Shown here: positions 7,719-64,000 of the stretch, in pieces
Layout of the letters: each line of letters begins with the position of its first letter
Position numbering within the stretch: the first letter of the stretch is position 1
Assembly: GCA_030704615.1 (NCBI GenBank)
Contig: CM060734.1
Coordinates: forward strand, 23,374,001 to 23,438,000
Source: Takakia lepidozioides
Lineage: Eukaryota > Plantae > Bryophyta
Direction of reading: 5' to 3'
Length of the DNA: 64,000 bases
The notes under the pieces: model-generated
Database searches by the model: none
Told to the model about the DNA's origin: nothing
Seen by the model: the letters and a program-made list of their open reading frames with translations, nothing else
Position numbers and translations under genes: made by a program

Positions 7719-7730
7719 CACACCCCTACC
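7719..7730 (-). promoter_or_regulatory. Polypurine tract
   Basis: GGTAGGGGTGTG on the minus strand, abutting the 3' LTR. Confidence 0.8.
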
Positions 7731-13174: not shown

Positions 13175-13215
13175 GATGAGGCCAATCCCAAGGACGATCG
13201 CGTACTGAACTCTAA

Positions 13216-13227
13216 GCTCTGATACCA
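13216..13227 (-). promoter_or_regulatory. Primer-binding site (tRNA-iMet)
   Basis: TGGTATCAGAGC 2 nt inside the 5' LTR. Confidence 0.93.
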
Positions 13228-13229
13228 AG

Positions 13230-33100: not shown

Positions 33101-36100
33101 ATGGCACTCTCCCTTTCCTCTCTGCTTATGTTTGCTGTTCAAAGGTAGGCTTCCCGCCCTGAGTTTAAATTTCAGTCTAGTGCCGAGAGTGGGTAGACCC
33201 TTGAGGTCATCCATGATGTCCTCCCCCATGTCACACACTGGAAACAAGTTCAGGGAAGTTTTCTGCCTAACTTCATTTTCATCCGACAATGTGTGTGTGT
33301 GTGAGAGAGAGAGAGGGATTTGGTAGGTCCAATTTGTTCTACCACAAGTGCCCTTGGTTGCTCAGGTCGATCAAAGTTCATGCAGATTTGTCGAATGGGA
33401 TTGACTGAGGGATGCAGGTATGCGAAGTACTACAAGCGGTGTTTGGCAGAGCGCAAGCGCGTTGGCATCGGCTGCAGTGAAGTAAGGCTTCCGTCCTATT
33501 TGAGTGAGTTTTGGTTTCGGAGATTGTAATTTCAGGCCTTTTATAATTCGTTAGACGACACTTGTACAACTTCGGATCCGTTCCTCTGGGTCATGTGGAT
33601 GATGGCGGCACATTGTCTCCCTCCAGTGATGAGCACCTAGAGGCTGCAGGTTCAAGCAGCGGGTACTACTATGCCTCGATGTGTCATAACACTGGTTGTT
33701 GCCTCTTGTCTTCCTTGAAAAACATGAAATTAAGTATGTAGGATACTAGAGCTCCTAAGTTCTTAGTGAGGGAATACTTCCTTTATGCCCCTGTTCCCTG
33801 TGCACCTCTTTCCTTGAGCGACATGTACCTCTCTAAGTCAAATGTTTTCATTCAAAATTCCATGATTGAACTTTAATTTCTCCTGCTGATTCTCTTCTCA
33901 ATAAGCCAACGTAAAACCTGTGGACTAAACTCTTTTGTCCTTGCTTTATCCAAAGATATTGGTGCCGCAAATATTGTGTCACAGACTAGTAAACGCCACT
34001 GGCACTTTTGCTTGTTAAACTTGTAGCCCATGGCTAGCCAAGGTACCTGAAGATCCCAATCTCCTAGGTGTCTCTTTTGCGAGCCATACTTGCGCAAACC
34101 CCTCTTCACCGTCTGTACCACTCTCTCTGCCAAGCCATCGGCCTCAGGATGATCCCGAGAAGTGGTACGGTGGTCTATCAAGGCTTTATCATACAAAGCC
34201 TGAAACTCCCCCAAGAACTCTCTCCATTGGTCCGTGAGTACCTCAGCTGGAGCACTGAATCGGCTAAGCACACGATCCAGGAATGCATACGCAGCCCCCT
34301 CACTAGCTTTGTCAGGAAATGGAACCAACTCAATCCACTTGGCGAAGTGCTCCACCATCACCAACAAGCTTAAATCTGCTACATGTGCCTTGACCAGTGG
34401 ATGCCAAAGCTTAAGTAGTGAGACAATCTGTGCTGCCCGTTCAAACTGCTGATCTGCACTGAAGGACACTCGTCGGTGTAAAGGAAAGTGGTTCAAAGTG
34501 CCACAGACAACAGACATATTGGATCCCGAAAGTTTTCTTTCATTGTCCGTCTCCTTGCCACGAGACAAACTTCTCCCTGTTTGATGTTTTGGGCAACAGG
34601 GCCATGGACGTTTGTTATGGAGGAAAAAGCTTACAGAGTAAACATTATTTTATTGGAGAGAAATGCTGGGCAGAGCTTTTGAGCCATCAAAATCCAGCAT
34701 ATGGAAGAAGCCCAACCAAATATTGAAGTGATGAAGTGAAGTAAGCCTGATGTCCTGTAGCTACAGCTTTTTCTTATCGCAAGTATGTCATTACCCCCGG
34801 CAATACTGAAGTTAAGTCAGGATATTGTCAAGTTTCAGAGATAAGCCAAAGCAAAGGTGTCTTGTAGCTACGAGCTGAAATTGGTTCCACCTGTAAGTTA
34901 TCAGTCTTATTCCTGGATCTTAAATCTCAGATGAATCCAGCTTTACTAGCCCTTTCCCTGAAAATAGTGAGACTTCATTTTTTACACAGCCTAGAGAGTC
35001 TCATAGCTACAGATGGAATAGCTCCCTGTTGAAGTTTCCTTCCTAGGCAACAAACTCTAGAAGTCTTGATTCCAAATTTTTTACATAGTGAACATGGAGG
35101 TCTTGACTGTTTAGAACTTATGTGAAGATGTATAACGTAGTGAATTGTGTGGTGTTTTGCGTTTCTGACACATATCTGTGTTTCCAAAGAGAGTAAGCTG
35201 CTTAATGGAAACTGATAAATCCGTATCGAAGCCAATTTGAAATTCCCAGTTCCATGTTTAAGATATGAGACACGGTCATACTTTCTGCATGCTCCCTTCT
35301 GGCCACCAGATTGACAAGGCTAGCCGAGGAACCGGGCGGTTTGTAGTTAGCCTTGATGTTGTTTGTGCTATTTTGAGGTCTTCAGTGGCAAGATTCTATC
35401 CTCGTCCCTAAGAGGGCTGTGGTGGTTAATTTTGGGAGATGGGGAGCAAGATAATCTACATAACTGGATGGGCGGAACTTGGGATTTGAGAAACTAAGTT
35501 AGTTATCTTTGAAGGAGGGAGTATCATCGGTTGGATCTCCACCAAGAGATTTCATTTGAGCAAGCTTGTTTGGTAGGAATCATGCTCATGGGCGTGGTAA
35601 TGTAATTCCTTGATGGATGTCTGATGTCTGCCTTGAGATCTTAATGGAGTTCAACTTGCCTTGGGGTGGAAAGTTGGGGCAAATGATCACCCGAAGAGCT
35701 TGGAAAGCTAGACCAGGACTCTTGAAGGGTAAGACGTGTCTCTTTGTTAGTAATAAAGACTCCTCATAGCTCAAAAGCATGGGATGTGTGTCTAATGTAG
35801 GCTGTGGGTCCAGAATGAAAGAGTTGAAAAGAAGGGCACAGGAGGTGCAGAGTGAGAGGTCTAAAGTGTATGCTTGATGGGCATGCGTGCAGGAAATGAA
35901 CACACTTTTTAGGTTCTGGTCTTACTTCTTGCGGACCAACTTTAATCGCTCCATGTACCTTGAGTTTCTTAAGCTCGCGGAGGAGGATGCTGCCGCTAAG
36001 TACAACTATGGGATGGAATGCCTCTTCAGATTCTACAGGTACAAGGATGAGTGATTCCCTTCCTGGTATGCATCTTATTAGAGTAACAATGTGACTTGCT

Positions 36101-37264: not shown

Positions 37265-39718
37265 ACGGCATCCATTATTATTTCTTAAGCAGGCACCTGC
37301 TATTTTTTTTATCAGTTCGGATGCCTGCCTGGGGCCTGGTCATGGAAATATTTTTGGAGGTAGATTTACTGAGGCTGTCAACCTTTGGAGTGTTGATGCA
37401 AATGCTGTTAGCTTAGCGGATACAAGCAAGTATCTGCAAGAGAGAAATGGGTGGAAGTACCTACCCGTTCAGAGGCGGGTGATACAGTTCAACTGACAAA
37501 ATTTATTAGTGAAATCTCTTTGTAGAAAACTAATTAGTTTTCGTTAGTGATAGGAACTCAATTCTGTGTAGGTTGACTGCCCCAGAAACCATCCGGGGCT
37601 CACAGAGGCAGCGGCCCTGCCTCTGCCCTGCCCTTCCAATCTGCCAAACCAGGCCTGGTTGGGCATCTCGCTTTGCCTCTTCGGTCCCAATGAAGCACAA
37701 AGGGTTCTGTGACAGGGGACTAAAATGGTTTCCTTTGTTTGGCGAAGTTGCTTGTTGTCTATCATGCACTTCAGCGGTCTTGACAAGTTACTGCGGAGAA
37801 GGTACACCTCTGGCAACTCTTACAGGTGCGGGTGGTTCATTATTCTACTGTAGAGACAAATCTGTTTACCTCGGCTTCTAGTATTAGTGCATGTAGGTGT
37901 AATTAGGCAGACAGTTTTGAGGGTGCACATGAGGAGTCCATTTTCTTTGTGGCAGGTTAGCCAGTTAATTTAACAGGCTGTCTGCATAGGATGCCGTTCT
38001 TGATGGTTTTATGAATTTCGGACTTTGTCCTGTGAGAATGTGATTGATTGCATTTTAAGACACCATTTATTCTTGTCTTACTGCAACTGATTTGATGTGC
38101 ATGGGAAATCTTGGACAACGATAAGGTACCCGCTAGGTTTAGGGAAAAGTCTGATTGTCTGATACAAGTCCAAACATCTCCTTATGGATGATTGTCTGAC
38201 TGATTTAATGTCATTCTCTAATCCACCTACATGTGTCCGGGTCTTAGTTGTGTGTTATGCGGAGGGCCATGGTTAGTCTGGCTGTTGCCTGATTGTTTTC
38301 CCTTCTCCCACGTCCTTGCACGGAGTTAGGTGCCTAGTACATACTAGTGTTGGAGAATGCTGAAATGGTTGTTGTTTTGCAGAAGCGTGTTCTTACATCA
38401 TGAAACCTTAGACCTCAATCGGTTGTTGGTTCCCAGCTCCTACATCTACTGTCATACCATTGGAGTATGTCAGTCTGGCCGATTGTAAGACAATGCTTGC
38501 CACTGTCCAGCAATGTCCATGAAAACGTCAGAAATGCGGATGTATTCCACTGAGACCAGCAAAAGTCCAAATTTTTCCCCTTGAAGTCATAGCACCATGG
38601 ACATAAAATCCGCATGCATGAAGTTTGGAAGAACTGTAGTCCACAACCCTAATTCACAATGCATTCACATTCCTAAAACATGCAGCAGCAAATCCCTACA
38701 AAGTCTACAGCCCTAAATTTGGAATTTTTGGTGCATATGAAACTCCAAAAACAGGTGGAAGACGAGTACTTTGGGCTAAGATCTGTTTGCGTTCACAGAC
38801 TGCCGACCTTCCAATTTTGCCCGGCCACTTTTTTTTTCAGTAAATTCTAACTCTGTGGGGTGGAGGGGCTGCGTTAGGCTGCATCAAAGGGTAGGGTCCG
38901 GTTACAGTTAAATGATTATACCCTGATATACCCTGCGGGTATATCCAGATATATGATATACTCCCAAAGCACTGGTTTGGTCATGACGTGAAGTCAAGCA
39001 AATGGTCAAGCCAGCTTGGTAAGATAAGAAAGGCTCCTAGTCAGCAACTTGGTCAAGGAAGTAAGGGTTCAAAGGATGCAGAGTGACCTGCTGCTCAATG
39101 CATAGAGCTTGAAGAGGTGGACCACACAGGAGGATGGTGTGAATGTGCAACATGTAGGACAACCCATCATCATCATGAAACACAACATCAGTGCGGCAAG
39201 ACAAGGGGAAGCAGAAGGCACTGTTTCATCCCACTGCAAATAGAAGCCACCAGGTACTTTGAAGGTCTGTGCTCGTGAGTGTGTGCCTCACATATAGATG
39301 CTTGAAACACAAAATCTTAGAAGTTAGAGCTGGAGAGGTTCACATACCTCTGGGCTGATTTACAGATGTTTAGACCCTCTCCTGAGGAAGCCAATAATCG
39401 GGCTTTGAGATGTCAGAGTGTGTTGAGTAGCAGGAAGTACTCTATTTAACCATACACTGAGGGAGGGATACCACAAAAGAGGGACTACATCACCCAGTTG
39501 TGCCTGTACCAAAAGTTGCAAACACGACCTATGCCATGAAAATGCTAATTCAATTGGACAAGCTCACTTGACATCATCCCAGAAACATGAAAAAATGACA
39601 GTATCTCCCTACAAGTCCAGTAACTGCATTATCGTACACATGGAAGGAAAAGTCTACTCCAAGCCGCATGATTGCTGATGTCAAAGAGCACTGTTTGCAT
39701 GCGTGTTTATCCACAAAA

Positions 39719-47333
<7,615 letters not shown>

Positions 47334-47516
47334 CTTGCCCCTCCCTCTCCCTTCTTCCCTCTTCTTCTCCTGCCTCCCTGCCCTCATGCAGACTGGAGTT
47401 TCGAGAGACAGCTGCTTTTATTCATCCACATTTAATAGTTCTTCCCGTTTAGTATTTTACTGAGAACTCCGTACGCATTATTTAGATAAAGACTAATACT
47501 GCGACGCGTATAGATA

Positions 47517-47589
47517 GCCGCCCTAGCTCAGTTGGTAGAGCGCAAGGCTCTTAACCTTGTGGTCGAGGGTTCGAACCCCTCGGGCGGCG
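47517..47589 (+). tRNA. tRNA-Lys (CTT)
   Basis: 73-nt cloverleaf: acceptor GCCGCCC/GGGCGGC, anticodon arm caagg-ctCTTaa-ccttg, GGTTCGAA T-loop, downstream T-run. Confidence 0.96.
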
Positions 47590-47644: not shown

Positions 47645-47930
47645 GAGCATCTCCACGGTGCCACGACACTTGCCCGAAAATGGCAATCTAACGTTGCCGG
47701 CCCCGCCTTAAATCTGCCAACCACTCTACATTAAATTTGTGAGTTAATGAGATGTGATGTCCTCGGTCAACGTGCCAAGATTGTGATAGAGCGGCGAGCC
47801 TCCCTCAGGGCTATCTCTGCCGGGTTTCCTACCGTCCCAATCATGGAGTATCAACCAACCAGTCCTTGTAAAAAATACCGTAATCAGGGTATATAACGTT
47901 TGGCGGGCCGTCCTCACCGTGGAGATGCTC
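47645..47930. mobile_element. PIF/Harbinger (Tourist-like) MITE
   Basis: 16-bp TIRs GAGCATCTCCACGGTG / CACCGTGGAGATGCTC flanked by a TTA TSD. Confidence 0.88.
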
Positions 47931-48302
47931 TTAGTGATTCCTAGCATTTCATGACAACTCCATTTTGTATTTTGTAATGCAGCAGCTTTTGTCAGCTTTG
48001 GATTCTCCTGAAGACACGCATTACAAGCTGAAATGTACTAACTGGTTTATGGTGTCTAGATCATACGACCAAACCTTTTAAATCCTTAACCCCTAAGCGC
48101 CCAGTGCATTACTTTGACTTTTGGGAAAAACACGACCCCTAGTCGTTAGAAAAGTTGTTGGTATTTTCTGGAAAAAATGAATTTGAGAAAACTGACCACC
48201 CATAAGTTATGTGCACAACTACCTCTACATTTCGGACAAATCCTGGATAACCACACCGTTGGAGGTGGCCTCGCCCATTTTTGGCTCCTATCAAAAAAAC
48301 CC

Positions 48303-48335
<33 letters not shown>

Positions 48336-48759: not shown

Positions 48760-51420
48760 CAAAGGATCTGACTCCTCTTCTTGTGCTTCAGGTTGAACAG
48801 CAAACAGAAATGCATCGGGAAGTTGATCTTACACTCTTGTTGCTGGTTCACCTATGGTAATTCTTGACAGATGATCTGCCGTAACATGTAGTCTTCCAGG
48901 TTTATGAACCACTTCAAAATCATACTCATGAAGTGGTAATAACTATCGAGCAACCCTGCTACTAGTTAGTGGTCGATTTGCCAAATGAACCAAAGCCTGA
49001 TGATCAACAATAAATTTAAAGTGATTGCCAAGTAAATAATGCCGAAACTTCATTGCCAATGCTTCCCTCTCTGTGGTGCTTTAGTTCTTTTCAGCAGATG
49101 TCAGTAGTCTGCTTGCATAATAGATTGGAGAATCTATTGTGCCTGTCACATTCTGAGCCATAACTGCTCCAAGGGCGATGCCTCATGCATCACTATGTAC
49201 ATGGAATGGGTAGATCCCATCTTGGATTGATCAAGATTGGTGCAGTTATGAGTGCCTCTTTCAGCGAATCAAATAATTCCTGACAAGCTGGAGACCATTG
49301 GTGTTTGACATCTTTTTTTAGCAGTCTGTAGACTGGTGCTGCTCTGTGAGCATACTTGCACATGTATCGTCTGTAGAAACTTGTCTGTCCCAGGAAGTTT
49401 TTAAGCTTCTTTGGATTCTCTGGTGGTGGTATTTTCTTGATACTGTCCACATTCTTTGGGTCAACCAGAAGTCCCTGTTGGCACACAATGTGTCCCAATA
49501 ATACTCTTGAATTCACACAAAATGTGCATTTTTCGGGGTTTAGACTTACCCCATTGATTTTGCATACTTATAGGTAGAGCTTTAAATTTGTAAGCGTAAG
49601 CTCCCCATTCAGTGATGAATGTGGTCTTCTTTCGGTCTTCCTCTGCCATCTGCAGATCTGATTGTACCCACTGAATCCATCCATGAATGAGTACATCTCG
49701 TGTCCTGCCACCATGTCCAACACTATCTCTGTAAAAGGTAGTGGAAATGGGTCTTTCTTGGTTCCTGCATTCAATTTGCGGTAATCCACACATACTCGCA
49801 ATTTGTCATTTTTCTTAGGCACGATTACAATGGGTGATAACCATTGTGGTGTCTCTACTTGGTATATGAATCCTGCAAAGGTAATTTCTTGATTTCTTCC
49901 CAAACCTTTGCTGCAAAGTTGGGATTCATCCTGTATCCGTTCTGTCGAACAGGTTTAGTATCCACTTCTAGCTCAATCCAGTGCTGACAGATAATTGGGA
50001 GGTATTCCCTTCAGATCCTTGTAGTTCCAAACGAATACATCTTTGTATTCGGTGAATAGTGCAGCAAGGCCTCATGTAGGAATGATTCTTCAAGGCCTGC
50101 ACTTACTCGTATTATCTGTGGGTCTTCCACTGTACCCAAATTCATTTGAATCAGTTGAGTTTCTTCCGGCAGTGTCCATCCTGCAATATCTTGTCCTATG
50201 GTAGCAATCGTGGCTGGTACTTCACTGATTTCTGATATCCTCTTCTCTTTCTTGATAGAAACGAGCGGGATGTTGAGGTGTGTCCATGGCTTCCTCCTCA
50301 GGGTCATCTGTTACTGGATTGCTTGTTTCCCCTTGTGTGTTCACCATGTGACATCCTACTGTCGTGGTATGCTTGACCACTAGTTGACCAATAGGTTCTA
50401 GCTGTGGATGTGTTGCATACACCGTAGCTTCTTCTTCATCCGACAGTCCATTAGACCAGTCATATTCTTCCACTAGGCAAGGTCGTTTCTCTCATAGCAT
50501 CGTACCTCGTTGCTTAGTGGTGATAGTGACTTGTTTCGACCCTTTCTTGATCGTGAGAGTTAGACTTCCCCAATCGTGGTAAGATTGGGCTTGGGTTAAC
50601 CATGGTCTTCCAAGCAATAACAAATACCCTTCTGCCACGTCTTCCATTCTGAGAATTGTCACTGGTACTTCGTATAGCAGTCCTGCTACTTCCATTGCTA
50701 GACGTCTGATGATACCCAATGGCTATAATTTCCGTTGATCTACCATTCGTACCGTGAATGGAGCAGGTTCCATATGCCCCAATCCCAGTGACTTCTTCAT
50801 TTTCTTTGTCATTGTATTAACTCCCGATCCTCCGTCGATGAGTACATGCATCACCAATTTTCGTCCAATACGTACTTGTATCACCGGTATTGCTTCATCT
50901 TAGTCTGGAACTCGTGGTATAATCGTGGGTTTAATCGTGTAAACCTCTGGTGTTGGCGTCCTTTTTGGTGTAGTGGTCAAGGCCTCAATTGCCCGAAATA
51001 ATGTTTTATTGCAGTGTGGAGCAATTTTCAATAATTGTCCAATGGTGATTTGTGTCTTAGTCTGGCATATTACTTCAGTCAATGCCGTCTTCGTGGTTTC
51101 ACTCGTGGTTTTCGTGGTTGGTCTGATCTGGTCATCTGGAGTTGGATCTCCAGAAGGTATATGGGTCCTTTCTTGCATTTGGGCTATGGCCTTGCTTACC
51201 TCCTGGTGTAAGCTCTTTTCTTCCTGCCATGCTACACTTTCTGGATATTGTTTCCGGTCTTCGTCGGATTCAGACTCCTTATCTGGAGGTTTCTGTTCTT
51301 GTCTCGAGTTTGGGTTACCGCAAGGGTATCCACTAGTTGGAGAGAGCTCATCGCAGGTATCGGCTGGTCCCGGAGTGTTTACATGGATCTGCCTATGTCT
51401 GGACGCAGACTGCAATTCAG
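48760..51420 (-). mobile_element. Decayed Ty3/Gypsy (Athila/Tat-like) gag end-PR-RT-RNase H
   Basis: VLIDGGSGVN, LLLGRPWL, WLSPIVIVPKK...CVDYRKLN...MDGFSGYNQI, LLGHIVC; many stops and frameshifts. Confidence 0.88.
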
Positions 51421-52020
51421 CAAAGGGTAAGCAAGTGGATGGAAGCAAAAACTTGGCCAGAGTTATTGACGGCCAGATGGATGGAGGACTTGTACATCAA
51501 TCAACCCAGTGCTACACAAGTCACACAGGTGGGGTTTGCGATATTCGAACGATGTCACTTTCCTACTAACTGGGAGTACTCAGAGTTTTTGGGCAGGACG
51601 GAGAAGGTCTATGCGGATTCTGACGATAAGGTGTTGCCATGTTGCGAGGCTGGAAGGATGAGTCTGATGTCGAAGAGAATGAGACCTTAGAGACAACAAC
51701 AAAGCCCTTTCAAATTCCCCGTGGTCAGAACCACTCGCCACTGCGGGTTGCAATAATGGATGCAATGGGTCCCACCTATCCACCTGTCATCCCCGTACGT
51801 CTTCATGAGGCCACCGACGGAAGGAAAAGAGGCTTCTCATTCTCATCCCCTGCCAACTCCTCCATTCATTTTAAACAGTATCCCGGCTTCAGATTACTCC
51901 GAAAAACCAATGTTATGTCATTCCTTCACGGACAGTGCGTATGGGATAGCGACAATCCCATCGGCTTTCCATGCATTTTGTAACTTTGCATGCCACACAT
52001 TGCTCTTTTAATGCCGAAAC

Positions 52021-52655
52021 ACATGTAGTTGTCACCGACTACATGTCAATGTAATTGACTGATTCCGTATGGATTTTCAAAAGGGGTGAACACGTAGTAC
52101 TCTCTCCAACTGTTGAAATTGAAGGACGGTACCGAACGGAGCACATAAGGTAATGCAAACTTCCGCAATTGGGCGAATGAGGTCATGGAATATGTGGAAT
52201 TTAACATATTCAATGGATTTTGCACTCTTTCATTGGGCAACAGTAAAGGTCGGTGCCGACTAAAAGTATATGAGATCGTGGAATGTGCGGTCTTCATCAA
52301 ATTATATGGAAATTGATATCTTTCGAAGGGCTAACAGTGAAGGTCGGTGCCGACTACATGTGCACATCCTCTCATTGAAACGTGGTAAATGGGCATATTG
52401 TAGGCAAATCCCACAGTTCTTAGCCCAAAGTCTTATACGCCCAACAGTAGAAGCTATATTCGAGAATAGCATAAGACCACCTTCCAACAGTGGGATTTGG
52501 CATATTATGGGCTCACTCCAATGGACCAACGGCATGATGTGGGTGGTGCGGTGCCGATTACAAGCATATGAGGTCAAGGAAACAACGGAATTGGTCATAC
52601 AATAGGCAAATTGAACTGATCGAGGGGTTTTCAATGGAGGTCGGTGCCGAGTAAA
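52021..52655. repeat. Spaced palindrome family A (TAGTCGGTGCCGACTA-like), cluster 1
   Basis: Copies near 52021, 52249, 52343, 52548 and 52640; degenerate copies near 52126 and 52438; spacing ~100 bp. Confidence 0.75.
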
Positions 52656-52820
52656 GGTAAATGGGTCCATGGATACGACGACAATGATGGCATATTATAA
52701 GAAAATACGATTCCCCCGCAACGAGTACATCCCAATTATCCAATTGCTCTCATGATTGCACGGTAGAAAAGAATAGCGACAGCGCATTCTCATCAACTGG
52801 GACACCTTGGATAGGCAGGA

Positions 52821-54005
52821 ACGGAAATGCGGTGCCGCATTTTCCGTCCGGGCTCTTTCAATGGAATCCAGAGGACGGAAATGCGGTTCTGCATTTCCGT
52901 CCTGCTACGGCTGTTCTGCTACTTTCGATTGCTGTTGGACGAAAATGCGGCACCGAATTTCCGTCCGAGGTGCACCTTTGTATTTTCAAGAACCGGAATG
53001 CGGCTACTCATTTCCGTCCAACATGCAACGCCTGTAACAGTGCAACGGAAATGCGGCACCGCATTTCCGTCCAAGTCGTACCTTCCGACTTTCCAGAACG
53101 GAAATGCGGCGCCGCATTTCCGTTTTTCATCTCAGGCATGCAGCACGGCAGGCAATGCGGCATGGGGGCCGCGCATTTCCGTCCAGGTTAAAACCTTATA
53201 TCTCCAGAACGCGAAATGCGGTGCCGTATTTCCATTCTGATTGTAAATCATGAAACACTGCAACTAAAATGCGGCACCGCATTTCCGTCCGAGTCGTACC
53301 TTCCGGCTTTCCAGAACGGAAATGCGGCGCCGTATTTCCGTTTTGCATCTCAGGCATGCAGTAGTGCGACGAAAATGCGGCACCGCATTTCCGTCCGGGG
53401 AAAACCTTTATACTCTCCAGAACGGAAATGCAGTGCCGCATTTCCGTCCAACAAGTAAGGTATGTAATAGTGGGACGGAAATGCGGTGCCGCATTTCCGT
53501 TCTGATTGTAAATCAGCATGAAACACTGCACAACTTAATGCGGGGGCGCAGTTCATCCGAGTCGTACCAGGGGACTCTGACTTTCCAGAACGGAAAGCGG
53601 CGCCCGCATTTCCGTTTTGCATCTCAGCCATGCCGCAGTAAGACGGAAATGCGGCACCGCATTTCCGTCCAACAAATAAAGTATGTAACAGTGGAACGGA
53701 AATGCGGTGCCGCATTTCCGTTCTGATTGTAAATCATGAAACACTGCCACTGAAATGCGGCACCGCATTTCCATCTGAGTCGTACCTTCTGTTTTTCCAA
53801 AACGGAAATGCTGCGCCGCATTTCCGTTTCTTGTCAGGCAGCTTGAAACCGCATTTCCGTTCGGAGGATGCAACTCAAAGCTGCCTTAACGGAAATGCGG
53901 CACCGCGCATTTCCGTTTTCACTCTAACTCATGAGATGTTGGTGACGCAAATGCCATGATATGTGAACACGTGGTACGCACTGGAAATGTCCGGGCACCG
54001 CATTT
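52821..54005. repeat. Array of ~21 26-bp palindromes ACGGAAATGCGG-NN-CCGCATTTCCGT separated by ~27-bp spacers (53-bp period)
   Basis: Units start at 52821, 52875, 52939, 52992, 53045, 53098 ... 53263, 53316, 53369, 53422, 53475 ... 53590, 53643, 53696, 53749, 53802, 53889. Confidence 0.95.
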
Positions 54006-55799
54006 TGATGTCTGCACTCAGCTCAGTCTGTGTGGTCAGGAGGCGCGGGGGGCGCCTGACCATTAATTAATGATTTTGTTTTTGCGGACGGCAGACTACT
54101 CTTGACGATTCAAATTTCGTAATGACGCATAGTCCACGAGGAGACACTTCCATCCCAGCCTTTCGAACCCAAGTGGTGCATCACCGCCGTTTCATCTTCT
54201 TTTGTCGTGTCTACTCAGTCATCCCTCTCGCCCTTTCCATCTGCACTCTTTTCTATGTCTGTGTTCCTCTTATGCTCTCAGCTTGAGAGGGAGGGAGTTC
54301 GTGCACCAGAAGAGACACATCGGCCGCATTAGCTCCGCAAGTTGTACTTCAGACGTAGCCAATGCCGAAGGGGAGGAAGCAGATGTGTTCTTCAGGAGGA
54401 GATGGTCATCTCGCAGCAGCAGGCAACGCAGTAACCAGCCCAGCCCGGCAGTAGAGCTCCGTGCTATCGGGATGCGCGCAGCTGATCGAGCACCCGAAAC
54501 CCTCCCTCATTTTCGTTGTGCAATTCTTAGACTATATGATAGGACACTTGAATGTAAGATGTTTTGCAATGCCTAACTCGAAGGTGGAGGTGGTGGAGGG
54601 ATCGCAGGAATCCGAAGAGAGCCGCAAGAAGATCCGTGGAGCTAGCTGGCAGCACGCACAACCCAGCCGATCCACGAGCACGGGGTCTTCCTGCCGGGCC
54701 TAGCCCTGTGCATTTTAAGGATGCGGCTTGGAAAGGCAAGTTTTTGCAGTTCAAAGCCCCAAAAAAAAACTCGCGGTTGAAGGTCATGGAGAATCGTCAG
54801 CAAGGTTTGGGCCCTTCTCCAGCAAAGACGAAGAAGAAGCAGCCTATCCTTGAACTGGTTTCTGAACCGTACCAGGCCGTTTCCCCCTCCCCCCAAGAGA
54901 ATGAAGCAGAAGGGTCATTGCAGATTCAAATGCAGCAGGACACCTTCACCTGCAAGAATCAAGAAGCAGAAGGCAATCAGGGGGAGGGGGCAGCAGTCTC
55001 CCGCAAAACCGATTCCACGACCTGAAGCCCAGTTCCTCCTGCTTGATTTCCAGGCATGTGATGTTGGGGGCGTCTCTGCTGCAGCGAAGGCAACGGGATC
55101 GACCGATTTCGTCGATCTGTCAGCGGAAGAGGGTGCTGCTGCTGCTGTGTGTCAGACAGCAAGAAGGAGCGTGGAGTTTACACATCAGGAGGGGGCGGGA
55201 AAAACTGCAATGCAAATTGTGTATAGGTGAAGCCCAGCTCCCGTTGTATGCAAAAGCTGGGTTATGAGGTTTGCCTGGGAATGCGGCACCGCATTCGCAC
55301 TTTATGTTTTCGGTTGCACTCTGCGAATACATTGGTCATAACTTGTGCTCACACATGCTGACTGTCTTGCAGGTATATGAATAATGTGCTTCTTAAGACG
55401 GGGCCCTGGCTCAAGAGCCCCCGTTCTTCATGGCTTGGACCGTGGCGGGCCCAGCTGTGTCTACACACCAGAGATGCAGAAACAATGGCATGCCGCGCAT
55501 CTCGTTGGATGCCCGTGGTACCTGGACATGTCCGGCGGACTTGTTGACAAATCAGAGAAAGATCTGCACATGAAAGCGGAGGAGAAGAGAAAGGAAAGAC
55601 GTGTCCCTGCTGGGCCTGAGTCAGCAAAGGACGTTGCGTCTCTGGAACAATCCAGAAAGGTCACTGAGATGCACAGAAGACGGTGGATGCAGCTGTGCAG
55701 GCTCAACAGAAGGGGTCGAAGAAGAGGACTCACCAGCAAGGAGCAGCAATTGTGAAACCCAAGAAGACGAAGAAGCAGAAACAGAAAGAGCAGGAAGAG

Positions 55800-56500
55800 G
55801 GTGACGAAGAGGACTCCGATGGAGACTTTGCAACCAGCCCACCCCCCGAAACGCAGCTGAAATCCCCTGTGCCCACCGAGGGACGAGAACAGGCTCAACA
55901 AAGAAGGCACTCTTCAACCCCCCGGGGGGGCACCCTTTTGAGCCGGTGGAAATGAAGAGGCCGAAACTGGAGCCAGAAACAGTAGTTCAGTGTGTTAATG
56001 AGAGTTTCTTGGCGGCTTTGGATGGACGGGCAGCGCAAGTTGGCATACATCAAACCATGGAGGGTCTGAAGGGCAGAGCACTGAAGAAGGTAGCTGCCAA
56101 AGAGCCTCCGACACCCCTGGGTTTCTGAAGATGGTCTCGTTCTTTGAGAAGGTGTGTGCAGGGAAGGATTGCAGGAGGGGCGGAAAAGCCACCGAGTGGT
56201 CTTGCGATATGATCATCTTGGATATTCCGGACGGAGAGCTTGTGGAACTAGGACTGCAAGCTTTGCCATCTTGGAACAGGTACTCCGAGGACTTTTGGAA
56301 GAAGGACATGTCGGGCTCGCCCGCATGGTGTTGGACGATAGAGGCTGTGTGGTTGTCCTGGCGAGTAGAGGCAAAAACACGGAGGCATGAATTGCGAAGT
56401 GGACCCGCAAGAGCGTCGTCCCAATTCTGAAGAAGAAGTGGATGTGCATCAACACATTGGGCCTTCGGTCGGAAGGGAAGAAGGGGGATTGAAAATGCAT
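55800..56500 (+). pseudogene. Beta-class amino-methyltransferase-like ORF, copy 1 (3' part of a frameshifted, probably spliced gene starting near 54550)
   Basis: CDMIILDIPDG...PSWN...LARMVLDDRGCVVVL...WMCIN resembles DLIITDPPY...RVLKxxGxI...WxKxN. Confidence 0.5.
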
Positions 56501-56696: not shown

Positions 56697-56980
56697 TATA
56701 GTCGGCACCGACTAAAACATAGCAGGCCAATATAGGGTAAAACGCCCCGTGCGAAGCTTGCGGGTGTTGTAATCGCCAACGACTACAGAAAGCATACGAA
56801 ATTAGGAGGGTAATCGTCGTTGAATTAATTCAAATACAATGTGGCAAATAAAACTTGGTTACTGTTATAGAAGGCACCGAGTAGGTGACACGCGTTGGTG
56901 AACGATTGAAGAAGCATATGAGGAACGTAGATGAGCGAAGGTACTGCGTTCCAAGCTCAAAGTATAGTTGGTGCCGACTT
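56697..56980. repeat. Palindrome family A, cluster 2
   Basis: tatagtcggcaccgacta at 56697; variants near 56769, 56865 and 56963. Confidence 0.7.
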
Positions 56981-57544
56981 CATGCACTTAAGTTAAATGA
57001 GGGACAACCAACATGTAGCCCAGTGGTAATGGGCACATACCACGTTGGATGTGGTTGTTCAAACCACAGTCTGGTGTGTCATGAAGGTGTCCACCTTTCA
57101 GCTGGAAAGCAGTAGCCCTTGTGGTGAAGAGACACCATAAGTTACGTTCCATTCGGGAGGCGTCATAATGAATGAATGAATGATTAAATGAGGCAACTGA
57201 GTGGAGTCTCTGTTTAAAAGTTCATAGAGCGCATTGCCTACCCATGGCTGTTGGTTTTGGAGGAGATCAGAAAGCACTCAAAGAACGAGTTTGGGTTGCC
57301 TTGGCCATTGCACCATCATGTCAAGATCATGGAAGCTGTTGAAGCATCGTGGAAGAGAAATTGTAATCCGCAATATTGAAATCCGGGCACATCATTGGAT
57401 GATACCAAACAGTTTAGGTGGCATAGAAAAGCCTAGTGTCTACTCAGTGATAATTGGGGCCTCATTAAGTACTAGATGTGATGACACCATGGTCGGCCAC
57501 GATAGACAATCGTCACTATGGTAACCAAGGACAAGGGTCGTGAA

Positions 57545-58890
57545 CTAACATTGTCTTCACCTCATTTATGGAGAGATTAGGGTGGTTGATGTCCTCCGAG
57601 TCTTCTCCCGCATTTTCAATCGGCGCAAAAAATATAGTATATATGCTTGCAGTGGGTATATGCGGATTTAGCCCTCTTCATTTTTCCAAAGTCAGGGCAG
57701 GTGCACTCCAGACTTCTAGAGATGCACACATTGTAGACCTCCCCTGCTTTGGCCATCCCGTGTGCAGAGTGTGTACACACGACCAATTCCAGGGCGGGAA
57801 CATCTTGAACGATTGTACAATTGCCTTCAAAGATTGTCCGAGCTCCATCTTTTTACGGGCTTGTGCACTCAATGGCTTTCGTCGATATATTTTATCCCAT
57901 CTCTTGGTTGCATATGTGTCCGGATCCAGGTGATTGGTATCCTCCCTCCTCCGCAACAGGTGTCCCCTCTCTCCTGGCAGCGCTTTAAATCGTCTGTAGA
58001 CAATCAAATCGCCAGCCACGGTTAAGGGTGCCACCTCCTCCTGATTTAAATTTGTCCCAACCATCACAGGCCAAACGTCGGGACATCTAGTCTATTGGCA
58101 CGCATCGCCCTGCTTCATCACCACCGACGGCAGTAACACGATTCAGTTGGAGGGGGCAGTGCCACATTTCCATCATCTTTGGTTTTACGCAAAGCCGGAG
58201 GATGTGGGCGACCACATATCTTGGGAGTGGGCAGGAACACCTCAAACTGTTGAGTTGCCGGATTCTTCTTTGGCCGGATTCTTCTTTGGAGAGACATCTG
58301 AACAGTAGTTGTGGGCACTCTTAGTCTTCCAGCACCTTCACGGCGCCTGGGTGTGGTGCGGAGGTTCATGTCAGGCCTCCATGAATGAAGGTGTTCCTCG
58401 TCTTCTAAGTTGCCTAAAACAATCTTCCGCTTCGTTGTCCGAGTGAGAAGGTCGCCCTCGAGCCCAGGATTTCTACCATAGAGAGGAGTTCCCTCCACAA
58501 AACTTCTTACCGCCTCTGCCATCTTCAGAGGATCAGAAGACCGCGCTGCCGCCCAATGTAATATTGTTGGCGGTCGGGACCAGAACCCTTTGCACCACCC
58601 TTTAGATAAATATGGAAGGCCGATGATTGCAAAATAGCCCTTGTCATGTGTCGTCTTTTGTTGGCTGTGTACAGGTCCACTTTTAAGACACCACTCCCGG
58701 CCTGCCAGCTCGCATTTGGCATTGCTGCGTCCTCTTCCAAATCCAATCCTTGCAGGTAAAATCTCCATCATGAGAACTACATTTGCGTGGACAACGAAAA
58801 AGGCAAGGTCTTAAGGTGAGGTTCATCGAAACGATATCGAGCCTGAAGTTATCAGCACCGAATATAGCCATCGAATGCTTCATGACACAG
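57545..58890 (-). pseudogene. SWIM zinc-finger protein gene, frameshifted (transposon-associated)
   Basis: Minus strand 57780-57616 translates YNVCISRSLECTCPDFGKM...YTHCKHIYYIF (CxC...CxH); co-linear upstream ORFs 57678-58067 and 58118-58771. Confidence 0.65.
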
Positions 58891-58902: not shown

Positions 58903-59325
58903 AAGTCGGTGCAAACTATAAGCTACCCACAATAGTGCCATGTCTTACGCTATAGTCGGTGCTGACTATAGAGGGAATGTTCTACTGAAGTGAGCTGCAC
59001 AGATGGGACGCTATGTTATAGTCGGTGCAACTACTATATCCACAATAGTGGCATTCCAACCGAGGCCGGAGTTTGGAGGATAATTTGCTACATGTTATTT
59101 GCTACATGTTATGCTATGTAGACTATAAGCTGTGGACAATAGTGCCCTACGCTACGGTATCTTCGGTGCAAACTGTACAACGAGTGTTCTGCTGCTGTGA
59201 ACCTCATGTGATCAGAGAAAATGTATTCACATTAAGGATCAATGTTAAAAATCTAATGTCATAGTCGGTGCAAACTATAAGGTAAAACAGTGCCATTGCA
59301 ACGCTATAGTCGGTGCAGACTACAG
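58903..59325. repeat. Palindrome family A, cluster 3
   Basis: tatagtcggtgc(a/t)(a/g)actata-like copies near 58904, 58951, 59018, 59162, 59261 and 59306. Confidence 0.75.
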
Positions 59326-60779
59326 TGGAATAAGGTCTCCTCATATGTGTTGTGCTTCATATCACCGAAGCGACTATGAAAGCAAGGTTTCGCTCATGTG
59401 AGCAGATCTACATCCGCTCATGGATTCTTTTTAAGGTAGAATAAACATAGTTCTCGATGGAACTGTAATAGTCAGACCTATGTAACAAGATTAAATGGGT
59501 TGTGGTTTGGTATGGATTATGTTTTTTAAGTTATGAGATTGCGGGTTCGATTACCAATCAATAGTCTTTTTTGTAAAATTGACGGGCCATCGCCATTTAC
59601 TACCCAAATGCGCAGGCGGACCATCTCCATCACATTGTCAAGCCCCCTAGCATTCCCTTAGCATTGCTCCATTCTGAACTTCAAACTAGACTCCCACCAT
59701 TGGAAGAGCCCGTACCTTCACCATTTGTATCTAACAAGGAGCCATGCCTCGTCACTTTTAATTTTTCGACCTTTTTCTCATGTTGGAAAGCCATAAAGCA
59801 ACATGTTCCTCTCCCATTCCTACACTCACCCATGTGGAATAATAATACAATAATATGGAATATTCTATATGGAATATTCTTATTCCATCCTTTGATATTT
59901 TGACTATGGACCCTAAGATTAGATGAATCACAATTTTATTTTATTTTTTTGGGTACCCTTATTTAAGTGTTGTGCATATAAAATTGTTCCTATGTGTATC
60001 TAAAATTTGTATGCACGCATACATTCCTCCATATGCATGCATTTGTGTGCGCATATAGTATAGGCTACCTCCAACTACATATATTTCCCCTATTCCAAGT
60101 CTAATAACCAAAAAAACAAATGGTTAGAAATTATGGACTTTGGAACGAGTCCATAAGGATTTGTTATAGTCCATATAAAAAGCCGTTATGGATTTTTTTT
60201 AGAGCATGATTAATAGAAAATTAAAAAAAGGACTTGACCAAATGTGCTTTGAGGGATAAAGAATCTAGAATGAAAACATCCACTCAAAAATATTGAGTAA
60301 TATAAACTTTATGTACTATTTTGAGCCTTCAAAATAACTATTTTTGTAAAGTCCTTTACATATAGAATTCTTTGAAATATCAACACTACCTCATTAAATA
60401 TATAGACCAAGGGTAAACCCCCGGGGTGGATCAAGGTCAAATTTGAAAAAAAAACTATCGTGCGGGTGGGGGTGATGCATCTGATTAGCCCCTTCCTCCA
60501 CCTCCAGATCTGTCACTGGAGGAATTCCAGAGTGCAGCGGATGCCATATTGGAGGAGACACACAGCAGCATTGGCAGAGTTCTGGGGAGCAGGGTCTTCG
60601 CTCGGACACTGCAAATTCCACTCTGTCACATGGTCTCCTTCCCCATCGTCAGGTAAGCTCTCCCAGGGAATGTGGATAAGCTGAAGTTTGCATTTCGAGA
60701 AGGGTCTCATCTAGGTTCTCCCGCCTTCTACATTTCCATTGAAGAATGAGGAAGGTGAATCGCGTGGACCCACAGAAGG

Positions 60780-61480
60780 AGCAGGAAGAGGCTGAAGACT
60801 AGGGCGAAGATAGGGACTTTGTAACCAGCCCACCCCGCGAAACCCAGCAGAAATCCCCTACTGCCGCTGTTGTGGCGAAAGGCACGAGAACTGGCTCAGC
60901 AAATAAAGCACTCTTCAACCCCCCGGGGGGGCATCCGTTCGAGCCAGTGGAAATGAGGAGGCCAAAAATGTTGCCAGAAACAATAGTAAAGTGTGCCAAT
61001 GAGAGTTTTTTGGCGGCATTGGATGGCCGGGCCGCCAAGTTGGCACATATCAAGCAAATGGAGGGGCTGAAAGGCAAAGCTCTAAAGAAGGCGGCTGTAG
61101 AAGAGCCTAACAACACCCCAGGATTTGTAAAGATAGTGCAGTTCTTTGAGAGGACAAGTTCAGGGAAGAATTGCATGAGGGATGGAAAACAAACCGACTG
61201 GTCTTGTGATATGATCATCTTGGATATTCCGGATGGAGAGCCAGTGGAAGGATTGGATGTTGTGCCTTCTTGGAGCAGGTACTCCGAGGACTTTTGGTAA
61301 AAATGATGTGGGCTAGCCCGCATGGTATTGGATGATAGAGGGTGTATGGTCGTCCTTTGCAAAACTAGGACTAACCTCGGTAGTGGTGATCAGGGCTGAG
61401 ATATCAGTATTCATTCCCCAGCATAGGCAAAAACACAGAGGCATGAATTGCGAAGTGGACCCGCAAGAGTGCCGTCCCAA
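60780..61480 (+). pseudogene. Methyltransferase-like ORF, copy 2 (diverged duplicate of 55790-56425)
   Basis: NESFLAALDGRAA...WSCDMIILDIPDG...PSWSRYSEDFW...LARMVLDDRGC; followed by family-B palindrome remnants at ~61508 and ~61594. Confidence 0.55.
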
Positions 61481-61969
61481 TACGTCCCATTTCATCCAAC
61501 CCACCCTGGATGGAAATTCGGCGCCGCAGGGGCCTCAGGTTGGGTGCCACCTGTGCTTCTCTCCCCCACACAAGGTTTCATCCAACTCCCACCGGATGGA
61601 AATAGGGCGCACCGCATTTCCATCCGGGGGGCTCGCAATTGGCTATCATCCTCCCCCCGGACAATATATAGTTCATCTGGAACCATGACCAAGAATTTAA
61701 ACTTTGGAGTTTCAATATGGAATTTAAAAACATTGATGGAATTTAAAAACATTGAATTTGGAGGTCCTTGTCCCCTATGACCGTGGATCCCTATACCCTA
61801 TTCCCGTGGACAATCATTTGTGAAAAAAAAATTCCCGTTCATGATTTTTTCGGCAATTACGAGTCTGCTCATGGCTCATGAAATAGCAGCCCCCGTTTGA
61901 CGAGTATTGTGCTAGGGGTGCAAGATTTGGCCATGTAATAAAATTCGCTGCACATTTACGAGGGGTCAG

Positions 61970-63266
61970 ATACGTTAGGGGGCAAATGAGGTAGTGACTG
62001 GTGGGATAATAGGCATTAGCATGCTTGGGGTGATGTCTAGGCGTTGCTGTATGGACTGGCGATAATGGATATTGATGAAGCAGGGAGCAGGCTGAAGGTG
62101 GTTTGTAGGAGTGTTAATAAACGCGGGTATAACTTGGTTGAAGGTAATCGGATGTGGAGTAATGCGATGGTTTACTATCAAGTGGGGGCGGTTATTGAGG
62201 TGAATATAGGGAGTGGTGATTAAGGTATAGGTGAGGTTTGCCTGCCGCCAGTCATGAATATTGTGTAATATTGGGGCTATATAGATTGAACAAGGGAATG
62301 GGGGGGGTAGTAAAGGTGTAGCAGGGGGGTGGCTAGTCTGTTGGTCAATTGGGCAGAGGGATATGTGGCATTTACGCAGTGTGTAGTGGTGGGGGGTGAG
62401 GGGTATCCAGTGTTAGATGGTATAGGGCTGCAGGTCTAAGTGTGAGGATCTTGGCATAGTGTAATTGTGCTTTGTGTATAATATGTGCTGCACAGAGTTT
62501 AATTGGGCAGTATTAAGCATGGTAGAGGCAGGGATTGGGAATCCCTGGTGTTTGGAGAAATAAAATCGATGGCATTTGATTGTATATGGAGGGGGGGGAG
62601 TTGGGGGTGTAAGTACTTTGTGAGTACTGAGAGATTGTGGTGGAGAGTGGTGGGGTATCTATTGGTATAATAGAAGTGTACAGGAGTTGGAAAGTATCCA
62701 TGGGAAAAATAGTATATCCCTTGATTTCGGAAGGGAATGGAATATGGAAGGGTGACACCGTGTGTATAACAATTACAAATTTGTACCAGATACAGCCCAT
62801 ATCAGGGGGTAATGAACAGACTGAGGGGAGAAGGTAGCTGGTAGTTTCTGAAACTGGGGGAATAACAGTAATTGCATCAAGAGTTAGCAGAGCCATGAAG
62901 CATAGCCTAGTGGGTGCAATTGATGTGCCAAGCATGAAGATTGGCCCTGAGTCTAAGCATCACATATGTCTGGGCACTTGTAAGCCAGTGGCAGTGAGTA
63001 TTGGTTGAGTAGCTAGGTGGGCTAATCCATGTAGTGGGCAAGACAGAATGGTATGTTGTTGTTGGGAACGATGGCAGGTAAGTGGGAGGCCAACACAGCT
63101 CCATACTGTTGTAATGGGATAAGATGTGCTCGGTTGTAACGAGTGTTGCAGAGAGTAGTTGGGGGAGGATGTTGTAAAGCCTTCGGGAAGCCAACGTGTG
63201 GATGGAACCTGCACATGGGGAGAGCACCTGGTGAGAATACTGTAGATGAGGGTTAAAGGGCTGCAG
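61970..63266 (-). mobile_element. Decayed sequence with the same strand-biased composition as the Dualen-like LINE
   Basis: C/A-rich minus strand with Pro/His/Thr-rich broken frames; no firm domain. Confidence 0.3.
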
Positions 63267-63997
63267 TGTCACGGCCCTTTGCCTTGAGGGTGAGGAGTCG
63301 GGACACAAGAGGGGCTGCCCCTGTGGTGGGGGCAGCGGCAGCAAATTGGGATAGGGGCTGAAGCACCCTTGAGTGCCAAAGGCACTCAATGAGGCGGATG
63401 CGCTCACTAGGTGGAGCCCCGCCAACCGGGTTGCGGTGGGGGGGGGCTCCATGTGGGGTGGTGGTAGCGTAGGGAGTCGTAGTGGGGGGTGGCATAGGAC
63501 TCACCATGAGGCTGAGGCCTTGTGGTGGGAGTCGCGGGGAGTCTTGGGACTCACTATGGTCCATGGGGGCCGTGGTGGGTGGGCCAAGATTCACTGCGGC
63601 TTATCACAGGGACAGTCGAAGGTCCTAAGTGGTGGTGCACCAGATTTGGACTTGGCTACTTGTGGAACCCCCGCGGACACCTACAGAAGTATATATAGAG
63701 AGTAGTAACCCCGAGAACGGTGCAAGCCCGTTGGTGACCAAAAGCTAATGAGTAAGCGTGCGAGCCGAAAAAGCGACCAAGGTGTGGGAAACTATTCCGG
63801 ACTACCATCTACCAAAAGGAATTTCCACTAGGCGCAAAGTGGTGGAGGGTCTTTTGGAAGCACAAGGGAAACCGTTATGCCCCGATGAGCAATTGAAGCT
63901 CCGAATTAGCCCGGCAGCCAGTTTGGGAGTTCGACGCGCACATCAAAACGAGTAACTATGACTTGAAGGGGAGTTTAGCAAAGTGAGGTACGCGACA
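63267..63997 (+). mobile_element. Probable solo LTR of the same chromovirus family
   Basis: Reverse complement of the 6994-7718 LTR, TG...CA ends; left flank TGCAG and right flank begins TGC (window ends), consistent with a TSD; no PBS or PPT adjacent. Confidence 0.88.
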
Positions 63998-64000
63998 TGC

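What the first reader, a model, noticed from the sequence alone, without database searches (positions are those of the whole stretch)
52821..54005. CRISPR-like repeat/spacer array of perfect palindromes with a 53-bp period in a plant genome
Seen: ~21 copies of ACGGAAATGCGG-NN-CCGCATTTCCGT separated by ~27-bp spacers of near-constant length but different sequence. Five spacer types recur in shuffled order (about D-A-B-C-E-A-B-C-D-E-A-B-D-E-A), so whole units were duplicated and deleted while the repeat and the spacing were kept. Isolated copies lie at ~55278, ~61508 and ~61594. Inference: 53 bp is ~5 helical turns, which would place dimer-binding sites on one face of the DNA (iteron-like). Alternatively, a transcript would fold into serial 12-bp hairpins that could be cut into ~27-nt spacer RNAs.
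Basis: partly seen in the sequence, partly recalled or inferred. Interest (0 to 1): 0.78.

Follow-up and report, generated by a model that had tools for sequence, protein, structure and literature searches.

The report
Transposon-end palindrome array, not CRISPR
A row of 22 evenly spaced DNA palindromes sits at one edge of a highly repeated stretch of a plant genome that is likely a jumping gene; the row likely grew by copying five-unit blocks rather than by capturing foreign DNA as CRISPR does, and the palindromes are likely docking sites for a protein of the element's own family.

Summary
The array is real: 22 units at 52,821-54,009, mostly 53 bp apart; only 5 match the motif exactly. It is not CRISPR-like. 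The five spacer types keep one cyclic order, A-B-C-D-E, with single dropouts (15 of 15 steps; p 0.0002). They fall into two related classes, and repeat variants travel with their spacers: a 265-bp higher-order minisatellite. No outside match was found. Palindromes differ 7% where spacers differ 62%, so the motif is selectively kept or homogenised. Contig depth places the array at the left edge of a discrete, very abundant 3.7-kb repeat (about 52,760-56,488) carrying a broken spliced gene. A CACTA-like end (CACGGTAGAAAA) lies 62 bp before the first palindrome, but no matching right end or transposase was found. Best reading: the subterminal docking array of a non-autonomous EnSpm/CACTA-type DNA transposon, as in soybean Tgmt*; binding is inferred. 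The gene's methyltransferase resemblance is motif-level only (tests inconclusive); no SWIM domain was found. New member of a known kind; interest 0.3.

The parts
52821..54009 (.). Array of 22 palindromic units (26-bp dyad plus ~27-bp spacer, 53-bp period) organised as a five-unit (265-bp) higher-order repeat A-B-C-D-E with single-unit dropouts; decayed after about 53,830
52759..52770 (+). Candidate left terminus CACGGTAGAAAA, resembling CACTA/EnSpm ends (resemblance to CACTA TIRs recalled; CAC-starting EnSpm ends seen)
   Evidence: Lies inside the boundary bracket 52,716-52,784: depth is still 407 at 52,715, and another copy aligns from 52,784. No matching inverted copy in the window.
52759..56488 (+). 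High-copy interspersed element (likely non-autonomous DNA transposon) holding the array and a broken gene; left end inferred, right end estimated from the depth drop
   Evidence: flanked by GATTG at 52,754-52,758 and 56,487-56,491, which may be chance
54362..56390 (+). Broken, probably spliced gene of the element (several frameshifts and stops); no family assigned
   Evidence: frames; 80% DNA identity to a second copy; 12 synonymous against 8 nonsynonymous codon changes in one 49-codon block, 6 against 17 in a 59-codon block; no hits
55227..55372 (+). Predicted intron (GT...CTGAC...TTGCAG, read by eye) that holds the isolated palindrome at 55,275-55,298
56113..56390 (+). Segment resembling motifs IV-VI of beta-class N4/N6 DNA methyltransferases, with DIPD where DPPY-type residues stand; no downstream FxGxG motif; ends in a stop
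   Evidence: profile alignment lands on motif IV but a reversed control scores the same; HMM test negative; motif scan
60772..61481 (+). Second, diverged copy of the gene's 3' part (80% identity over 592 bp, then 95% over 57 bp)
61510..61623 (.). Two degenerate palindromes (arms ATGGAAAT...ATTTCCAT) in an 86-bp duplication behind the second copy; possibly the short array of the other end
   Evidence: single-copy sequence resumes at about 61,890
52249..52650 (.). Second motif family GTCGG-YR-CCGAC in the lower-copy flanking repeat (also 56,698-56,712 and half-sites at 58,905-59,320); shares the CGG-YR-CCG core with the array

Best explanation
The array is a 53-bp-unit minisatellite at the left edge of a very abundant 3.7-kb repeat that is likely a non-autonomous EnSpm/CACTA-type DNA transposon, and its palindromes likely serve as clustered docking sites for a dimeric protein of that transposon family. 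Shown: the unit structure, the fixed A-B-C-D-E order, the kinship of spacers, the far stronger conservation of palindromes than of spacers, and the position at the edge of a high-depth repeat. Inferred history: one unit gave two spacer classes (B/D and A/C/E), these diverged into five types, the five-unit block was copied about three to four times, and whole units dropped out by slippage or unequal exchange between palindromes, which keeps the 53-bp phase. Inferred function: each 12-bp arm is a half-site; 53 bp is 5.05 turns at 10.5 bp per turn, so bound dimers would line one face of the helix; as for TnpA on Spm ends, the dense cluster would recruit the transposase and help the end escape silencing. 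The binding protein is not identified: it may be supplied in trans by an autonomous partner or be the intact form of the broken gene beside the array.
For: Depth in a DNA run that matches single-copy window sequence letter for letter: 68.5 for single-copy DNA, 200-990 left of 52,700, 45,771-324,070 over most of the array, 28,000-427,000 over 54,061-56,476, and 562 after 56,628 (summed depth is not a copy number, but 11,247 contigs were laid on 4.5 kb, 4,760 of them under 95% alike). CACGGTAGAAAA at 52,759 lies within the 68-bp boundary bracket, 62 bp before the first palindrome. Palindromes differ 7% and spacers 62% between unit types (31 pairs). 21 of 21 CGG-NN-CCG cores in 52.0-61.7 kb have a pyrimidine-purine centre, against 0 of 5 elsewhere. 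Soybean Tgmt* has 12 subterminal palindromes at one end and 2 at the other, with GC-rich and AT-rich parts (PMC2613891 section 7); here there are 22 at one end, and 2 behind the related second copy. TnpA binding needs dense motif clusters at Spm ends (bioRxiv 10.64898/2026.08.24.746577 section 4). EnSpm ends start with CAC in Ectocarpus (supplement row), and CMC-clade Plavaka elements are reported in moss (PMC13519894 passage).
Against: No inverted copy of the candidate left end was found in the window, so no TIR pair and no proven target-site duplication. No transposase was found in or beside the element. No protein of the element has a significant database match. Depth dips to 1,340 at 53,910-54,060, and the link between array and gene in other copies rests on a few short joints, such as 53,124 to 54,136 with 27 letters on the shorter side. 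Within recent duplicates, palindromes have also drifted (13 differences in 144 positions against 30 in 162 for spacers, 6 pairs, one inflated by an internal shift), so this copy is decaying. The YR centre can be explained by CpG decay alone. The high-depth stretch ends in an 18-nt purine run (56,471-56,488), a feature of LTR elements. There are no binding data.
Confidence: 0.6

Rival explanations
1. A functionless minisatellite carried by the repeat: the palindrome is kept uniform by cruciform-driven slippage and gene conversion between units, and the 53-bp phase is only the unit length inherited from duplication.
For: The higher-order structure, related spacers and co-inherited repeat variants are what neutral tandem duplication gives. 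Several substitutions fit methyl-cytosine decay. No binding protein is identified.
Against: Spacer classes have diverged to near-random identity (B-C 15%, C-D 8%) while keeping 27 nt and near-identical palindromes. Lone copies of the palindrome without the spacers occur in a predicted intron and behind the second copy. A flanking repeat carries a different palindrome with the same core.
Confidence: 0.2
2. The array is the target strip of an accessory ParB-like/methyltransferase-type gene carried by a giant DNA transposon (Plavaka- or Sola-type), and what lies here is an internal piece of such an element rather than its true end.
For: Tandem inverted repeats lie beside the ParB-like PAG3 gene of red-algal Plavaka elements, which also carry an N6-methylase gene (bioRxiv 10.1101/2025.02.11.637652 passages). 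Sola1-1_Ec32 carries a ParB-MTase gene (PMC12477816 passage). The neighbouring frame aligns to methyltransferase motif IV, with 2 of 300 column shuffles scoring as high. One palindrome sits in the gene's predicted intron.
Against: The reversed query scores as high as the real one (21.0 against 20.8); 219 of 2,000 shuffles reach the HMM score. There is no ParB G-x-HR motif and no + strand FxGxG after the segment. The catalytic motif would read DIPD in both copies.
Confidence: 0.12
3. The array is the variable non-coding region of a retroelement or of a TIR-less mobile element, not a cut-and-paste end.
For: An 18-nt purine run followed by TTG ends the high-depth stretch, GATTG flanks it on both sides, and no TIR pair was found.
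Against: The two flanks share no similarity, so they are not LTRs. Depth falls to 562 after the purine run, where an LTR should stay high. There are no gag/pol or recombinase hits in the element. A 5-bp match is expected by chance given the boundary uncertainty.
Confidence: 0.06
4. A CRISPR-like cassette: the array is transcribed and cut at the hairpins into ~27-nt guide RNAs whose spacers were captured from elsewhere.
For: Repeat-spacer look; each intact repeat alone folds into an 11-13-bp stem as single-stranded DNA (z -6 to -8); other genomic copies show further spacer sequences (table 5c).
Against: Spacers recur in fixed order and are mutually related. None of 16 spacers matches the rest of the window better than shuffles do. 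No significant match in 50,697 phage or 72,556 plasmid records. No Rfam family reaches its gathering score. No Cas-like gene was found nearby. A multi-unit RNA pairs between units.
Confidence: 0.02

Closest known systems
CACTA (En/Spm) subterminal repeats, e.g. soybean Tgmt* (PMC2613891; passages and section 7 read) and Arabidopsis Spm ends bound by TnpA (bioRxiv 10.64898/2026.08.24.746577; abstract and section 4 read)
   Same: A dense cluster of inverted motif pairs forming serial palindromes close to a CAC-starting end; each arm has a GC-rich and an AT-rich part; many palindromes at one end and possibly two at the other.
   Different: Here the period is a strict 53 bp with a five-unit higher-order structure; no TIR pair, target duplication, transposase or TnpA homologue was found; the motif is unrelated in sequence.
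Plavaka (EnSpm) accessory genes PAG2/PAG3 of red algae (bioRxiv 10.1101/2025.02.11.637652; passages read; supplements not seen) and the ParB-MTase gene of Sola1-1_Ec32 (PMC12477816; passages and two supplement rows)
   Same: A tandem array of inverted repeats beside an accessory gene in a DNA transposon; the neighbouring frame resembles an N4/N6 methyltransferase by eye.
   Different: No ParB, SET or oxygenase domain was detected; the methyltransferase resemblance is not statistically supported and covers only the catalytic half; the host is a land plant.
VANC target repeats of Arabidopsis VANDAL elements (PMC5735166; passages read)
   Same: A short motif multiplied by tandem duplication in non-coding parts of an element, introns included.
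   Different: VANC motifs are 8-9-bp non-palindromic words in MULEs; no VANC or MULE protein was found here.
CRISPR arrays (recalled)
   Same: Constant-length palindromic repeats separated by spacers of near-constant length.
   Different: Spacers are duplicated, related and ordered; no outside match, no cas genes; eukaryotic host.

Membership tests
CRISPR array | Unique, independently acquired spacers | tested here: not met
   Five types recur in a fixed cycle (15 of 15 steps are +1 or +2, p 0.0002) and form two related classes
CRISPR array | Spacers match foreign or distant DNA | tested here: not met
   None in the window, phages (best E 0.4) or plasmids; host genome and eukaryotic viruses were not searchable with the spacers
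CRISPR array | cas genes nearby or a known CRISPR repeat family | tested here: not met
   Pfam on 29 frames; Rfam shows only sub-threshold miRNA hairpin matches over the array
CRISPR array | Processing into unit-length RNAs | not testable with these tools
   No raw small-RNA reads were offered
CACTA/EnSpm transposon | Clustered subterminal motifs in inverted pairs near an end | tested here: met
   22 dyads starting 37-105 bp from the depth-defined left boundary
CACTA/EnSpm transposon | Terminal inverted repeats starting with CAC at both ends | tested here: inconclusive
   Left candidate at 52,759; no matching right end in the window; this copy may be truncated
CACTA/EnSpm transposon | 2-3-bp target-site duplication | tested here: inconclusive
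   TTG (within GATTG) flanks both inferred ends, but the right end has no TIR and chance is not excluded
CACTA/EnSpm transposon | TnpD-type transposase or TnpA-type gene in autonomous copies | tested here: inconclusive
   None in this copy; other copies could not be read (no genome)
CACTA/EnSpm transposon | Interspersed, multi-copy | tested here: met
   Sharp-edged high depth from thousands of diverged contigs; a second copy 5 kb away
ParB-methyltransferase accessory module (Plavaka PAG, Sola1-1_Ec32) | N4/N6 methyltransferase domain (PF01555) | tested here: inconclusive
   No Pfam or NCBIfam hit; HMM negative; profile alignment hits motif IV but the reversed control ties
ParB-methyltransferase accessory module (Plavaka PAG, Sola1-1_Ec32) | ParB-like DNA-binding domain | tested here: not met
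   No Pfam hit in the frames scanned and no G-x-HR motif on the + strand; the gene is broken, so a decayed domain is not excluded
ParB-methyltransferase accessory module (Plavaka PAG, Sola1-1_Ec32) | Tandem inverted repeats adjacent to the gene | tested here: met
   The array ends about 350 bp before the first ATG at 54,362
Higher-order minisatellite | Diverged monomers repeated as an ordered block | tested here: met

The most novel reading that the evidence does not exclude
A very abundant bryophyte transposon family carries a bacterial-type methyltransferase-derived pseudo-enzyme together with a helically phased, parS-like strip of its own binding sites, and nested families have co-diverged arms around one CGG-YR-CCG core: a family-specific self-recognition and anti-silencing code in a land plant with an exact, testable 26-bp target.
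Probability: 0.15. Interest if true: 0.6.

Novelty: new member of a known kind. Interest (0 to 1): 0.3.

Why it matters
It removes a tempting 'plant CRISPR' reading and shows how such look-alikes arise: a transposon-end binding motif multiplied as an ordered minisatellite. If the docking model holds, the exact 26-bp dyad and 53-bp phase give a direct handle for finding the autonomous partner of a very abundant, unannotated repeat family and for testing whether helical phasing matters in transposon end recognition or anti-silencing.

Tried and rejected
No whole genome is held, so copies could not be aligned. Collection scans for the exact palindrome gave 0 in viral and 0 in metagenome contigs. 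A two-core pattern gave 13 metagenome, 3 prokaryote-genome and 0 viral stretches; none of the 16 aligns to the window by blastn, so they are look-alikes only. Protein searches were blank: the second copy's frame against longer proteins, as an alignment against near lengths, the MTase-like part, ESM Atlas (best 0.86 with low recognition), PDB sequences (best E 0.6), NCBIfam, PHROGs (best E 0.014 to an unknown family), phage tblastn, viral loci, and the 230-aa minus-strand frame at 58,121-58,810 against 1.84 billion representatives. A single-sequence fold had pLDDT 33 and was not used for a fold search. Expression: no RNA holder listed; two runs guessed to be RNA hold a few diverged contig pieces on the element, which is no evidence either way. 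An LTR-bounded reading was rejected because the flanks are unlike each other. A SWIM neighbour was rejected. CCGTG at 61,781 and 61,804 were considered as right ends of the second copy, but they match the left candidate over only 5-6 bp and multi-copy depth runs on to about 61,890. Paper searches listed no description of this array or family; most hits were seen as listings only, subscription papers and Repbase were not searched, and the supplements of the Bostrychia preprint, which may list plant relatives, were not seen.

Full report
1. Observation. The motif ACGGAAATGCGG-NN-CCGCATTTCCGT matches 14 times with at most 3 mismatches, all between 52,821 and 53,827, against none in 100 dinucleotide shuffles. 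A gapped scan of the whole window gives 22 units from 52,821 to 54,009 and three weaker lone copies at 55,275, 61,510 and 61,596. Only 5 units are exact. 12 of 21 intervals are 53 bp and 15 of 21 are 52-54 bp. The core observation holds.

2. The spacers are not a record of captures. Leaving aside the two unique spacers at the left and three decayed ones at the right, the 16 typed spacers read D-E-B-C-D-A-B-C-D-E-A-B-C-E-A-B. In the cycle A-B-C-D-E, 12 of 15 steps move one place and the other 3 move two; shuffled orders, each allowed its best cycle, reached 12 single steps in 0 of 5,000 trials and 15 one-or-two steps at p 0.0002. Among the 13 spacers of 27 nt, same-type pairs are 70-96% identical, B with D averages 62%, and A, C and E average 48-53% among themselves, while B-C and C-D are 15% and 8%; shuffled spacers give 25%. 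Repeat variants are inherited with their neighbours: the ACT-starting variant stands at 3 of 3 A-to-B junctions, and a CG-type centre precedes type C. Tandem Repeats Finder reports periods of 53, 106 and 274. This is a five-unit higher-order repeat with whole-unit dropouts. None of 16 spacers of 26-29 nt matches the rest of the window better than its shuffles. The whole array has no significant match among 50,697 phage and 72,556 plasmid records, and no Rfam family reaches its gathering score.

3. What still needs explaining is the contrast: between unit types the palindromes differ by 7% and the spacers by 62% (31 pairs), while spacer length stays at 27 nt. All 21 CGG-NN-CCG cores in 52.0-61.7 kb have a pyrimidine-purine centre (CA 9, TG 8, CG 3, TA 1), against 0 of 5 elsewhere. 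This fits either decay of a central methylated CpG or a flexible hinge between half-sites. A single repeat folds into an 11-13-bp stem, but a five-unit RNA is predicted to pair mainly between units, which does not suit orderly cutting into spacer RNAs.

4. Setting. The window is eukaryotic and rich in retroelements; earlier unchecked notes call the host a likely moss, which I did not test. No genome is held, so I used contigs of a public DNA run that matches single-copy window sequence without a difference over 1,546 bp at depth 68.5. Summed depth is 200-990 up to 52,701, 21,869 in the next bin, 45,771-324,070 over 52,853-53,758, 12,793 and 1,340 over the decayed end of the array, 28,000-427,000 over 54,061-56,476, 8,445 in the next bin and 562 after 56,628. 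Summed depth is not a copy number, but 11,247 contigs were laid on 4.5 kb, 4,760 of them under 95% alike, so the array belongs to an abundant, diverged repeat family with sharp edges. The left edge lies between 52,716 and 52,784; the right edge is estimated at about 56,488. Other copies show both variants of the local spacers and different ones (table 5c; 12 of 70 rows shown). Inside the left bracket, at 52,759, stands CACGGTAGAAAA, which resembles CACTA ends (recalled); no inverted partner exists in the window. Both flanks are lower-copy repeat DNA with a second palindrome, GTCGG-YR-CCGAC, which suggests a nested insertion.

5. The gene beside the array. From an ATG at 54,362 a broken, probably spliced frame runs to 56,390; a lone palindrome lies in a predicted intron at 55,227-55,372. 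A second copy of its 3' part lies at 60,772-61,481 (80% over 592 bp), followed by two degenerate palindromes. One block shows a coding signature (12 synonymous against 8 nonsynonymous codons; 14 of 22 differences at third positions), the next does not (6 against 17). No library or database recognised any frame tried. The last 90 residues resemble motifs IV-VI of beta-class N4/N6 methyltransferases by eye. Tested against 19 bacterial members, an HMM gave no support (219 of 2,000 shuffles scored as high). A profile-profile alignment landed on motif IV and beat 298 of 300 column shuffles, but the reversed query scored the same. The catalytic motif would read DIPD, and no FxGxG follows on the + strand. 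It is at most a pseudo-enzyme remnant. No SWIM pattern and no ParB motif were found near the array.

6. Mechanism. The best-supported reading is a subterminal docking array of a non-autonomous EnSpm/CACTA-type transposon (confidence 0.6). Shown: array anatomy, position at the edge of a high-copy repeat, and selective constancy of the dyad. Inferred: the element class, protein binding, and a role for the 5.05-turn phase. Against it: no TIR pair, no transposase, a depth dip between array and gene, and drift of the palindromes in this copy. Rivals are a functionless minisatellite homogenised by conversion (0.2), the target strip of a ParB/methyltransferase-type accessory gene inside a giant transposon (0.12), a non-coding region of another element class (0.06) and a CRISPR-like cassette (0.02).

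7. Comparison with print. Soybean Tgmt* has 24 subterminal repeats forming 12 palindromes at one end and two palindromes at the other, with GC-rich and AT-rich parts (PMC2613891, section 7 read). TnpA binds dense motif clusters at Arabidopsis Spm ends and induces local demethylation (bioRxiv 10.64898/2026.08.24.746577, section 4 read). VANC targets multiply as tandem repeats (PMC5735166, passages). Red-algal Plavaka elements carry tandem inverted repeats beside a ParB-like gene (bioRxiv 10.1101/2025.02.11.637652, passages), a brown-algal Sola1 element carries a ParB-methyltransferase gene (PMC12477816, passages and supplement rows), and Plavaka elements are reported from moss (PMC13519894, passages). 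PMC4738411 and PMC6446971 (passages) added nothing specific. My searches listed no account of this family. Earlier AI notes describe similar arrays in transposons of other genomes; they are leads, not support.

8. Verdict. A real and tidy feature, but of a known kind: it works like CACTA subterminal repeats, and membership is unproven because ends and transposase are missing. The strict helical phase and the shared core with a neighbouring family are the points worth a follow-up. Interest 0.3.

Noticed in passing
window 52,249-52,650, 56,698-56,980 and 58,905-59,320: A lower-copy repeat (depth about 200-1,400) carries its own motif family GTCGG-YR-CCGAC and half-sites GTCGGTGCAAACTA, with the same CGG-YR-CCG core as the array; the last cluster lies upstream of unassigned minus-strand frames at 57,681-58,810.
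   Followed up: partly
window 57,003-57,185: SINE-like insert with a tRNA-like head and a (GAAT)n tail; many contigs of runs guessed to be RNA have loose ends here.
   Followed up: no
window 47,645-47,930: Short element with inverted ends GAGCATCTCCACGG and TTA on both sides, Tourist/Harbinger MITE-like (read by eye, family recalled), just behind tRNA-Lys(CTT) at 47,517-47,589.
   Followed up: no
window 48,086-48,330: TTAA followed by CCCCTAAG, resembling a piggyBac-type end (recalled), then a 29-nt A run.
   Followed up: no
window 39,684-47,417 (minus strand): Exons that resemble CCR4-NOT subunit 11 (recalled from the translation; Pfam gave no hit on three pieces).
   Followed up: no
window 26,975-27,701 and 32,712-33,290: Inverted pair of LINE 3' fragments, about 90% complementary and 5-6 kb apart, around a host gene fragment that resembles a La-related protein (recalled).
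   Followed up: no
window 4,400-15,900, 48,760-51,500 and 63,266-64,000: Several Ty3/Gypsy-type elements and LTR copies; the LTR at 63,266-64,000 is 83-84% identical to three copies at 7-15.9 kb on the other strand.
   Followed up: no
L003, L009, L010, L011 (metagenome contigs): Dense arrays of ATGCGG-NN-CCGCAT cores (4-7 per contig) in unrelated contigs; no alignment to the window.
   Followed up: partly
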